Virus record (IMG/VR): IMGVR_UViG_2695420651_000024
DNA from: a virus
Taxonomy: Duplodnaviria; Heunggongvirae; Uroviricota; Caudoviricetes
Reading direction: 5' to 3' (one strand)
Length of the DNA: 42,748 nt
Shown here: positions 26,220 to 26,407 of the stretch, in pieces
How positions within the stretch are numbered: position 1 is the first letter of the stretch
How the letters are laid out: every line of letters begins with the position of its first letter
The notes under the pieces: generated by a model
Seen by the model: only the letters and a program-made list of their open reading frames with translations
Database searches by the model: none
What the model was told of the DNA's origin: nothing
Program-made: the position numbers and the translations under genes

Positions 26220-26407
26220 GGAACCACCTGCCCCCACCTGGAACCACCTTTTCCTAACCTTTCCCTCAATCGACTTATATATATATATGGGGTTTCTAGT
26301 AGAAAGGCGGTTCCAGTGGTTCCAGTAGTTCCGCCCCGCTTGCCACAAGGTCTGCAAGGTGGAACCACCTTCTCTTCTAGGTGGTTCCGCGTGGTTCCAG
26401 CGGTTCC
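26220..26407. repeat. Iteron cluster with AT-rich spacer: putative replication origin
   Basis: About nine copies of GGAACCAC(C)/GTGGTTCC in both orientations around TATATATATATAT (26276..26288); the last copies encode the primase C-terminus (...WEPLEPRGTT). Confidence 0.55.

What the first reader, a model, noticed from the sequence alone, without database searches (positions are those of the whole stretch)
26220..26407. Iteron cluster flanking an AT-rich tract that overlaps the primase C-terminus: putative replication origin
About nine copies of GGAACCAC(C)/GTGGTTCC occur in both orientations around a TATATATATATAT stretch within 190 bp. The last copies are read as the final primase codons (WEPLEPRGTT), so the coding sequence and the binding-site array are superimposed. 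This is the signature of an origin recognised by the adjacent primase-helicase, as in P4 alpha/ori-crr. The same array probably produced the three spurious track ORFs here.
Basis: partly seen in the sequence, partly recalled or inferred. Interest (0 to 1): 0.6.

Follow-up and report, generated by a model that had tools for sequence, protein, structure and literature searches.

The report
Prophage replication origin with matched initiator
The repeat cluster at the end of the primase-helicase gene is very probably this E. coli prophage's replication origin, an already known kind of element, and relatives carry at least nine versions in which the repeats and a few residues of the enzyme's DNA-binding tip change together.

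Summary
Nine GGAACCAC-type 8-mers (6 exact, 3 with one mismatch) lie in 26220-26407, in both orientations, around TATATATATATAT (26276-28), the least stable 16-mer of the window. About 0.13 copies are expected there by chance. The last three copies encode primase residues 720-728.

The interpretation as an origin read by the adjacent primase-helicase is supported. The protein has a Prim-Pol domain and a VapE-type helicase, whose only sequence match among solved structures is SaPI1 Rep (7PDS). It ends in a C-terminal winged helix.

In 79 related loci the scaffold stays the same, with the central spacer 87% identical, but all iterons change together into at least 9 classes. Each class goes with its own motif at primase residues 715-719, in the wing of the winged helix. 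Identical Cro or Q proteins occur with different classes.

Near-isogenic prophages differ only in a 247-bp island (26174-26420). It holds the array and the wing codons, so site and reader form one exchangeable cassette. The same layout follows the primase gene in APSE-1, Yersinia YeP4, Caulobacter phages, and Gilliamella and Burkholderiales prophages.

The closest known system is the SaPI Rep/PriRep5 origin, not P4 ori-crr, because no second cluster exists. I rate it a new member of a known kind. Binding and replication are untested.

The parts
26174..26420 (.). Origin/specificity cassette: the whole exchangeable unit, holding the array and the wing codons of the primase
   Evidence: The window (class A) and L097 (class B) differ by sparse SNPs over about 3.9 kb, except for a divergent island at 26174-26420 and the separate cro region.
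26196..26215 (+). Conserved box TGCAAAAAGTTGCTAATTCG directly left of the array; role unknown
   Evidence: It is conserved across all 9 classes and present in Burkholderiales L012. A second copy lies at 26465-26484 (family D1).
26220..26229 (+). Iteron L1, GGAACCACCT
26230..26239 (+). Degenerate iteron L2, GCCCCCACCT, which keeps only the CCACCT half
   Evidence: The middle unit of the left triplet is also the deviant one in other classes.
26240..26249 (+). Iteron L3, GGAACCACCT
26250..26304 (.). Central spacer (66% A+T), conserved between specificity classes; presumed site of melting and helicase loading
   Evidence: Mean identity between the 9 class representatives is 87% here, against 44% in the iteron variable halves.
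26276..26288 (.). TATATATATATAT tract followed by invariant GGGGTT (26289-26294); presumed DNA unwinding element
   Evidence: It is the least stable 16-mer of the whole window, rank 1 of 42,733. The exact 21-mer CTTATATATATATATGGGGTT occurs in 73 IMG/VR contigs.
26307..26314 (-). Iteron M1 (GGAACCGC on the minus strand)
26316..26323 (-). Iteron M2 (GGAACCAC on the minus strand)
26325..26332 (-). Iteron M3 (GGAACTAC on the minus strand)
26361..26370 (+). Iteron R1, GGAACCACCT; it forms a perfect 10-nt inverted pair with R2 across an 8-nt gap
   Evidence: I7
26379..26388 (-). Iteron R2 (AGGTGGTTCC on the plus strand); overlaps the primase stop codon and codons 726-728
26391..26398 (-). Iteron R3; lies inside primase codons 722-725
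26400..26407 (-). Iteron R4 (GGAACCGC); lies inside primase codons 719-722
26407..26421 (-). Codons 715-719 (K-C-K-V-W), the class-specific residues in strand beta3 of the wing; presumed specificity determinant
   Evidence: The motif maps one-to-one to iteron class, except that class H and two class C loci share a motif. Near-isogenic A/B pairs differ only from residue 715 onward. Divergent relatives agree.
26401..26499 (-). Codons for recognition helix H3 (residues 689-701, nearly invariant) and the wing hairpin (704-721) of the C-terminal winged helix
26377..28563 (-). Initiator gene encoding Prim-Pol primase, VapE-type helicase and a C-terminal winged helix (728 aa)
   Evidence: Pfam PF05272 on residues 427-639, E 2.4e-60. 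PF09250 on residues 48-188, E 5.8e-10. SaPI1 Rep (7PDS) E 7.5e-34. PHROG primase and helicase families.

Best explanation
The region 26174-26420 is the vegetative replication origin of this E. coli O103:H2 prophage. It is of the self-loading initiator-helicase type.

Inferred mechanism:
- The 728-aa protein encoded just upstream has a Prim-Pol primase, a VapE-type helicase and a C-terminal winged helix. Its winged helix binds the roughly 10-bp iterons.
- Three iterons on the left (+) and three in the middle (-) face each other across a 55-bp conserved A+T-rich spacer centred on TATATATATATAT. A further group of 1(+) and 3(-) copies sits at the stop codon.
- Oligomers assembled on the two facing arrays melt the TA tract and load themselves as helicase. 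The N-terminal Prim-Pol domain primes, and the phage's own polymerase and SSB, encoded on the other arm, extend.
- Specificity appears split. The nearly invariant helix H3 would read the conserved CCACC(T) half of the iteron, and wing residues 715-719 would read the variable half (GGAA in this phage).
- Because the wing codons lie about 10-40 bp from the array, site and reader are inherited as one 247-bp cassette when these mosaic phages recombine.

Shown here: the anatomy, the statistics, the protein homology and fold, the co-variation and the cassette boundaries.
Inferred: binding, melting, loading, and the assignment of iteron halves to H3 and the wing.
For: Clustering:
- There are 9 copies in 188 bp against about 0.13 expected. 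They sit at 9-10 bp pitch as facing arrays.
- The TA tract is the least stable 16-mer of the window.

The protein:
- Prim-Pol domain.
- VapE helicase, whose only sequence match among solved structures is SaPI1 Rep, 7PDS, at E 7.5e-34.
- SaPI Rep origins are described as 6-12 iterons directly downstream of rep, split by an AT-rich centre, in opposite orientation and bound by the C-terminal winged-helix domain (PMC9371898).

Co-variation:
- 79 loci share the scaffold but carry at least 9 iteron classes. The central spacer is 87% identical between classes, against 44% for the iteron variable halves.
- Primases are equally similar within and between classes over residues 1-650. They diverge only in the last 40 or so residues.
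- The motif at residues 715-719 maps one-to-one to class, except that class H and two class C loci share a motif.
- Identical Cro sequences occur with classes B/D/E and with A/B/G. The window's own Q protein occurs unchanged with class B.
- L097 (class B) and L062 (class A) differ at 2 residues before position 700 and throughout from residue 715 on. The divergent DNA island is 26174-26420.

Out-of-sample checks:
- Photorhabdus L022 (72% identity) and L151 (66%) carry GGAACCACC with GKKCKVW.
- YeP4 (73%) carries AGACAACC with GKQQRIF.
- Xenorhabdus loci carry GTACCAACC with GK..RIF.

Breadth: the same layout follows the primase stop codon in Gilliamella/Orbaceae, Burkholderiales, APSE-1, YeP4 and Caulobacter phage Jess A.

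The intergenic region contains no promoter-like or terminator-like site, and the one Rfam match in the scanned stretch is a weak below-threshold hit inside the Q gene.
Against: - No experiment: binding, melting and ori-dependent replication are all inferred.
- The wing codons sit next to the iterons, so physical linkage alone would produce an association. The argument rests on the concerted change of all copies while the spacers stay conserved. It also rests on recurrence of the same pairs in backgrounds only 66-73% identical.
- The W-or-F versus CCACC-or-CAACC tendency fails in APSE-1, which has GTAACAACC with GKVCRVW. A simple residue-to-base code is therefore not established.
- GC skew gives no independent origin signal, because it follows transcription direction.
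Confidence: 0.85

Rival explanations
1. The array is an operator or regulatory region for a transcription factor. In this reading Cro, cI, Q or another early protein binds here to control read-through from the early operon into the Q antiterminator gene just downstream.
For: The array lies in the 288-bp gap between the primase gene and Q. Neither a sigma-70-like promoter nor a terminator was found there, so Q is probably expressed by read-through across the array. A protein bound there could therefore act as a roadblock.
Against: Identical Cro, cI and Q sequences occur with different iteron classes, so none of them can set the specificity. The array stays with the primase gene when the downstream gene differs, as in classes E, F, G and I, YeP4, APSE-1 and Jess A. 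A secondary gating effect of the bound initiator on Q expression is not excluded.
Confidence: 0.06
2. The inverted repeats encode a structured RNA or a transcription attenuator at the 3' end of the primase mRNA, and the changes between classes are compensatory stem changes.
For: The minus-strand transcript folds far better than shuffles (-91.7 kcal/mol, z = -5.45). A perfect 10-bp stem with an 8-nt loop spans the stop codon (I7). Both arms change together between classes.
Against: Strong folding follows automatically from inverted copies of one unit. The RNA model does not explain the direct triplets at 9-10 bp pitch, the conserved TA tract between the arrays, or the class-specific protein residues. 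No U-tract terminator was found. The scan returned no Rfam hit in the array, and the one weak hit (E 0.42) lies in the Q gene.
Confidence: 0.03
3. The array is a packaging (pac/cos) site or a partition site recognised by the small terminase or a centromere-binding protein.
For: Repeated protein-binding sites near the start of the late region are typical of terminase recognition sites. This is my own knowledge and was not tested here.
Against: The small terminase gene is 3 kb away, at 22884-23456. The array travels with the primase 3' end whatever lies downstream. The co-varying protein segment is in the primase.
Confidence: 0.02
4. It is a chance or low-complexity repeat with no function, or a remnant of coding tandem repeats.
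For: The 18-mer GGTTCCAGTGGTTCCAGT also occurs in 42 unrelated viral contigs without a primase relative.
Against: Those 42 hold the motif in one orientation only and lack a (TA)n tract. Here there are 9 copies against about 0.13 expected. The layout is conserved across orders of bacteria while the unit sequence is replaced in concert.
Confidence: 0.01

Closest known systems
SaPI replication origins with their Rep / PriRep5 initiator-helicases (Staphylococcus aureus pathogenicity islands; PMC9371898, PDB 7PDS, 7OLA)
   Same: The helicase core is homologous (7PDS, E 7.5e-34). Primase and helicase are fused in one chain, as in PriRep5. A C-terminal winged helix is present. The origin sits directly at the 3' end of the gene, its short iterons are split by an AT-rich centre and face each other, and specificity is matched to the cognate protein.
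   Different: The element is in a Gram-negative temperate phage, not a satellite. The iterons are about 10 bp, not 5-6 bp. The array runs into the coding sequence, and there is a third iteron group at the stop codon. At least nine specificities sit on an almost identical scaffold. The phage also brings its own polymerase and SSB.
Satellite phage P4 alpha protein with ori and crr
   Same: One polypeptide combines primase, helicase and a C-terminal origin-binding domain that recognises short repeated octamers.
Lambdoid ori inside gene O, with O-type-specific iterons (my own knowledge)
   Same: The iterons are embedded in or abut the initiator gene next to the codons of its DNA-binding part, so site and reader recombine as one unit. 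Several specificities exist among mosaic relatives, and an AT-rich region lies beside the iterons.
   Different: Lambda O is only an initiator that recruits host DnaB through P. Its iterons lie in the N-terminal coding part and are direct repeats. Here the initiator is itself the helicase-primase, and the arrays are inverted around the AT tract.
Archaeal plasmid pRN1 ORF904 (Prim-Pol, SF3 helicase and winged helix) with its origin downstream of the gene (PMC4234260 and PMC2777425; abstracts seen)
   Same: The domain order is the same, and required cis sequence lies just downstream of the replication gene.
   Different: It is an archaeal plasmid. I did not verify any iteron/AT-tract layout there, and relatedness was not tested here.

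Membership tests
Iteron origin of a self-loading initiator-helicase (SaPI Rep/PriRep type) | The origin lies directly at or after the 3' end of the initiator-helicase gene | tested here: met
   The array at 26220-26407 spans the stop codon at 26377-26379. The same position is seen in 79 close loci and in distant relatives.
Iteron origin of a self-loading initiator-helicase (SaPI Rep/PriRep type) | Six or more short iterons, at least two on each side of an AT-rich centre, in opposite orientation | tested here: met
   Three (+) copies lie on the left, one of them degenerate, and three (-) copies lie to the right of the TA tract. A further 1(+) and 3(-) follow.
Iteron origin of a self-loading initiator-helicase (SaPI Rep/PriRep type) | An easily melted AT-rich centre | tested here: met
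   The central spacer is 66% A+T, and the TA tract is the least stable 16-mer of 42,733.
Iteron origin of a self-loading initiator-helicase (SaPI Rep/PriRep type) | The initiator has a Rep/VapE-type ATPase core and a C-terminal winged-helix domain | tested here: met
Iteron origin of a self-loading initiator-helicase (SaPI Rep/PriRep type) | Cognate specificity: iteron sequence is matched to the initiator's C-terminal domain | tested here: met
   Nine classes each have their own motif at residues 715-719, except that class H and two class C loci share a motif. Cro, cI and Q assort freely. Near-isogenic pairs and divergent relatives agree.
Iteron origin of a self-loading initiator-helicase (SaPI Rep/PriRep type) | The protein binds and melts the origin, and the origin supports replication when the protein is supplied in trans | not testable with these tools
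   This needs EMSA or footprinting and an ori-plasmid assay.
P4 alpha / ori-crr system | Two separated cis elements (ori and crr), both carrying the iteron | tested here: not met
   There is only one cluster. The single other exact 8-mer, at 25022, fits the chance expectation of 1.23 per window.
P4 alpha / ori-crr system | One multifunctional protein with primase, helicase and a C-terminal origin-binding domain | tested here: met
   Prim-Pol, VapE helicase and a winged helix are all present. The primase domain is of the AEP type, which I believe differs from P4's (own knowledge).
DnaA-dependent origin | Conserved DnaA boxes within the origin | tested here: not met
   One perfect box (TGTGGATAA, 26153-26161) lies outside the exchangeable cassette. 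It is degenerate in classes C, D and H, and absent where the left flank differs.
Lambda-type O/P origin | The initiator lacks helicase activity and recruits host DnaB; direct iterons lie inside the initiator's N-terminal coding region | tested here: not met
   The initiator carries its own helicase and primase domains, and the iterons are inverted arrays at the C-terminal end.

The most novel reading that the evidence does not exclude
The 247-bp island is a natural, rapidly swapping 'replication-specificity cassette'. Two to five residues in strand beta3 of a winged-helix wing, and not the recognition helix, would re-programme which 4-nt half-site is read. At least nine alleles sit on an otherwise 90-100% identical initiator, and more exist in APSE, Yersinia, Gilliamella, Burkholderiales and Caulobacter phages. 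If so, the series would give a readable wing-to-DNA recognition code. It would also point to selection for replicon orthogonality among co-resident prophages or against hijacking by satellites. The initiator bound between the primase gene and Q might in addition time late-gene read-through.
Probability: 0.4. Interest if true: 0.55.

Novelty: new member of a known kind. Interest (0 to 1): 0.4.

Why it matters
- It gives a concrete, testable origin for a widespread prophage group. The 401-bp origin region matched 140 of 5,426 complete E. coli genomes. The primase relatives found also include Salmonella, Enterobacter, Klebsiella, Yersinia and Photorhabdus proteins, and the aphid-symbiont phage APSE.
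- I found no paper describing an iteron origin for this group.
- It flags ORFs over the array as probably not genes, including APSE-1 'P4'.
- The natural allelic series offers ready-made specificity-swap constructs: five residues plus about 250 bp of DNA. These could be used to study how a winged-helix wing reads DNA and how mosaic phages keep an initiator and its site matched.
- The kind of element itself is well known, so this is solid annotation with a useful comparative result, not a surprise.

Tried and rejected
- Cro, cI or Q as the iteron reader: rejected, because identical proteins occur with different iteron classes.
- DnaA-box-driven origin: the perfect box at 26153-26161 is outside the cassette and not conserved.
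- Promoter or terminator in the gap: none was found.
- Known RNA family: the only hit is a sub-threshold c4-a1b1 match inside the Q gene, E 0.42. The strong RNA fold follows trivially from the inverted iterons.
- GC-skew evidence for an origin: uninformative, because skew follows transcription and switches at the cro/cI divergence near 28.5 kb.
- A simple rule of W719 with CCACC and F719 with CAACC: it holds in the nine close classes and most relatives but fails in APSE-1, and L014 has Y at that position. I report it only as a tendency.
- A second, crr-like cluster in the window: none.
- NCBIfam gave no name for the protein, and Pfam gave no family for the C-terminal domain alone.
- The 18-mer scan of viral contigs mostly returned unrelated one-orientation tandems. 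It served as a negative control and did not add members.
- A literature search for VapE, iterons, primase and prophage together found nothing. The APSE comparative-genomics paper placed its origin only with a skew tool.

Full report
**What is there**

The window is a nearly complete prophage of E. coli O103:H2 strain 12009 (100% match to NC_013353.1). On the minus strand an early operon runs from a Cro-like HTH gene (28767-28567) into a 728-aa ORF (28563-26377). A 288-bp gap follows, then a Q-family antiterminator gene (26088-25666), then lysis genes and the terminase genes. A LexA/S24-type repressor gene lies divergently at 28909-29583.

The finding sits in the gap and runs into the last codons of the 728-aa ORF.

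**Checking the observation**

Exact GGAACCAC occurs 7 times in the window, against 1.23 expected. Six of those lie between 26220 and 26398. With one mismatch allowed there are 9 copies within 26220-26407. About 0.13 would be expected in 188 bp from the window-wide shuffle mean.

The layout is ordered:
- Left array: GGAACCACCT / GCCCCCACCT (degenerate) / GGAACCACCT at 10-bp pitch on the plus strand (26220-26249).
- Central spacer: 55 bp, 66% A+T, holding TATATATATATAT (26276-26288) followed by GGGGTT.
- Middle array: three inverted copies at 9-bp pitch (26307-26332).
- A 28-bp spacer.
- Right array: one direct copy (26361-26370) and three inverted copies (26379-26407).

The TA tract is the least stable 16-mer of the whole window by nearest-neighbour energy, rank 1 of 42,733.

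The ORF ends ...KVWEPLEPRGTT*. Codons 720-728 and the stop are written over the three right-hand inverted copies.

Three further ORFs cross the array. RefSeq annotates none of them. They are not conserved in the other iteron classes, and two classes have none.

**The adjacent protein**

- Residues 48-188 match Prim-Pol, PF09250, E 5.8e-10. An LALDCDSED motif and a Cys/His-rich segment (CPFEDGH...CLHASCAH) are visible in the sequence.
- Residues 427-639 match the VapE-like ATPase, PF05272, E 2.4e-60, with a Walker A motif GPQGCGKS.
- PHROGs places the protein in DNA primase and DNA helicase families.
- The only sequence match among solved structures is 7PDS, the SaPI1 Rep-DNA complex, at E 7.5e-34 over residues 393-657.
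- An AlphaFold2 model of residues 625-728 (mean pLDDT 71.6) gives helix, strand, helix, helix and a beta-hairpin, which is a winged helix. H3 is residues 689-701, and the wing strands are 704-711 and 714-721.

**Comparative evidence**

Two E. coli prophages that matched only the left part of the region have the same scaffold but different repeats in the same positions. One has CTGTACCAGC and the other TGTTACCACC.

A scan of IMG/VR for the backbone 21-mer CTTATATATATATATGGGGTT gave 73 contigs. A genome scan with the protein gave 22 loci.

Across 79 loci the layout is constant, but the iterons fall into at least nine classes:

| Class | Iteron core |
|---|---|
| A | GGAACCAC (this window) |
| B | GTACCAAC |
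| C | GTAACCAC |
| D | GTTACCAC |
| E | AGACAACC |
| F | GTCCCAAC |
| G | AGACCACC |
| H | GTATCCAC mixed with GTAACCAC |
| I | AGCCACC |

Within a locus all copies change together. Between class representatives the identities are as follows:
- central spacer: 87%
- CCAC half of the iterons: 70%
- variable half of the iterons: 44%

That pattern is what a change of reader specificity predicts. It is not what a randomly diverged block predicts.

For 46 distinct full-length primases, identity within and between iteron classes is the same (0.9-1.0) from residue 1 to about 650. It separates only in the last 40 or so residues, at 0.92 within and 0.67 between.

The class-specific residues are G713-K714 followed by x-x-[KR]-[VI]-[WF]:

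| Class | Wing motif |
|---|---|
| A | KK[CS]K[VLI]W |
| B | KMTRIF |
| C | KVQRVW |
| H, and two class C loci with mixed arrays (L066, L075) | KVLKVW |
| D | KLMKVW |
| E | KQQRVF |
| F | KKMRIF |
| G | KQIRVW |
| I | KMTKAW |

These codons (26407-26421) lie outside the iterons apart from one shared base at 26407. They fall in strand beta3 of the modelled wing.

The other candidate readers assort freely:
- Identical Cro sequences occur with classes B/D/E and with A/B/G.
- One identical cI occurs with classes A and C.
- The window's own Q protein occurs unchanged with class B.

Near-isogenic pairs narrow the determinant. L097 (B) and L062 (A) differ at 2 residues before position 700 and throughout from residue 715 on. 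L033 (A) and L075 (C/H mixed) differ at 1 residue before position 700.

At the DNA level the window and L097 differ by sparse SNPs over 3.9 kb. The exceptions are an island at 26174-26420 and the unrelated cro region. The array and the wing codons are therefore one exchangeable cassette.

Linkage alone could give such an association, so I looked at divergent backgrounds:
- Photorhabdus L022 (72% identity) and L151 (66%) combine GGAACCACC with GKKCKVW.
- Yersinia phage YeP4 (73%) combines AGACAACC with GKQQRIF.
- Xenorhabdus loci combine GTACCAACC with GK..RIF.

A simple W/F rule fails in APSE-1, which has GTAACAACC with GKVCRVW. I therefore do not claim a residue-to-base code.

**Breadth**

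The same layout follows the stop codon of the homologous gene in several groups:
- Gilliamella/Orbaceae, 57-58% identity
- Burkholderiales, 50-64%
- Hamiltonella phage APSE-1, where the annotated 'P4' ORF lies on the array
- YeP4
- Caulobacter phage Jess A, 46%

In each case the layout is direct copies, a TA-rich tract, then inverted copies, with another unit sequence. The downstream gene differs between these, so the array belongs to the primase module and not to Q or the terminase.

The stop codon moves relative to the array, at offsets 69-122 from the anchor, and 0-3 iterons fall inside the CDS. The encoded tail therefore appears incidental.

The 18-mer GGTTCCAGTGGTTCCAGT is present in 73 IMG/VR contigs. 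Of the 52 new loci, 42 hold it in one orientation only. Those 42 lack a (TA)n tract and a primase relative, and some are giant-virus MAGs. Nine of the other ten, with primases 66-100% identical, combine both orientations with a (TA)n tract. The tenth, L114, has a 29%-identical helicase and no (TA)n run. So the unit alone is not diagnostic, but the bipartite layout is.

**Rivals**

- A transcription-factor operator is excluded for Cro, cI and Q by their free assortment.
- A structured RNA fits the strong fold (z = -5.45). It does not explain the direct triplets, the TA tract or the protein co-variation. No terminator, promoter or Rfam family was found in the array.
- A pac/cos site does not fit, because the array travels with the primase gene.
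- A DnaA-dependent origin does not fit, because the one perfect DnaA box (26153-26161) lies outside the cassette and is not conserved.

**Comparison with known systems**

SaPI origins are described as 6-12 iterons immediately downstream of rep. They are split by an AT-rich centre, have at least two iterons on each side in opposite orientation, and are bound by the winged-helix domain of the Rep C-terminal domain. Rep is a self-loading helicase, and PriRep5 is a primase-helicase fusion (PMC9371898). All sequence-level defining features are met here, and biochemical function is untested.

P4 ori-crr is a looser analogue, because no second cluster exists. I found no paper describing this origin for this phage group or for APSE.

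**Verdict**

The element is a new member of a known kind. The added value is the roughly 250-bp specificity cassette and its natural allelic series.

Noticed in passing
window 26142-26161: A perfect DnaA-box 9-mer, TGTGGATAA (reverse complement TTATCCACA), lies at 26153-26161. It is paired with TTATCCGTG at 26142-26150, giving TTATCC-N8-GGATAA, upstream of Q. It lies outside the exchangeable origin cassette, is degenerate in classes C, D and H, and is absent where the left flank differs.
   Followed up: partly
window 26196-26215 and 26465-26484: The box TGCAAAAAGTTGCTAATTCG directly left of the array is conserved in all classes and in a Burkholderiales relative (L012). An 85% identical direct copy lies 269 bp away, inside the codons of the winged-helix recognition helix. 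Its role is unknown.
   Followed up: partly
L099 (APSE-1, NC_000935.1) 3445-3666: The annotated hypothetical gene 'P4' of phage APSE-1 lies on the GTAACAACC iteron/TA-tract array downstream of the P3 helicase gene. It is probably not a gene.
   Followed up: partly
window 30897-36459 (+): The opposite early arm encodes a phage replisome. It comprises an exonuclease annotated as DUF2800 (31802-33103), a Gp2.5-like SSB (33119-33667) and a DNA polymerase (PHROG family phrog_17, 34396-36459). After initiation, replication is therefore probably largely host-independent.
   Followed up: no
window 33500-34400: An A+T-rich island (GC 0.36 against about 0.50 for the window) holds a 209-aa minus-strand ORF (33720-34349) with no Pfam match. 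It may be an acquired accessory gene.
   Followed up: no
window 437-2219: A Hin/Gin-type resolvase-invertase gene (1866-2219) lies near a tail-fibre assembly gene (437-1042). This suggests an invertible host-range segment.
   Followed up: no
window 37232-42279: A C5 cytosine methylase (37232-38245), an SNF2-family helicase (39288-40682) and a tyrosine integrase (40876-42279) lie at the prophage end. ARAGORN found no tRNA gene in the window.
   Followed up: no
L114 and L133 (IMG/VR): A VapE helicase only 29% identical, with a different C-terminus (L114), is followed by CTGGAACC repeats in both orientations. L133 shows a similar array at a contig end. The GGAACC core may have been reused or arisen convergently.
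   Followed up: partly
L022 (Photorhabdus caribbeanensis): This locus has 11 GGAACCA copies and what looks like an extra copy of the array beside the primase 3' end. That would be a partial duplication of the origin.
   Followed up: no
L071, L073, L086, L066, L075: These are mixed arrays. The copies flanking the TA tract are GTATCCAC, while those at the stop codon are GTAACCAC, all with the wing motif GKVLKVW. This may be an initiator that tolerates both units, or a recombinant origin.
   Followed up: partly
window 25983-26023 (-): A weak Rfam match to c4-a1b1 (16.3 bits against a gathering score of 46.7, E 0.42) lies inside the Q gene. It is most likely chance.
   Followed up: no
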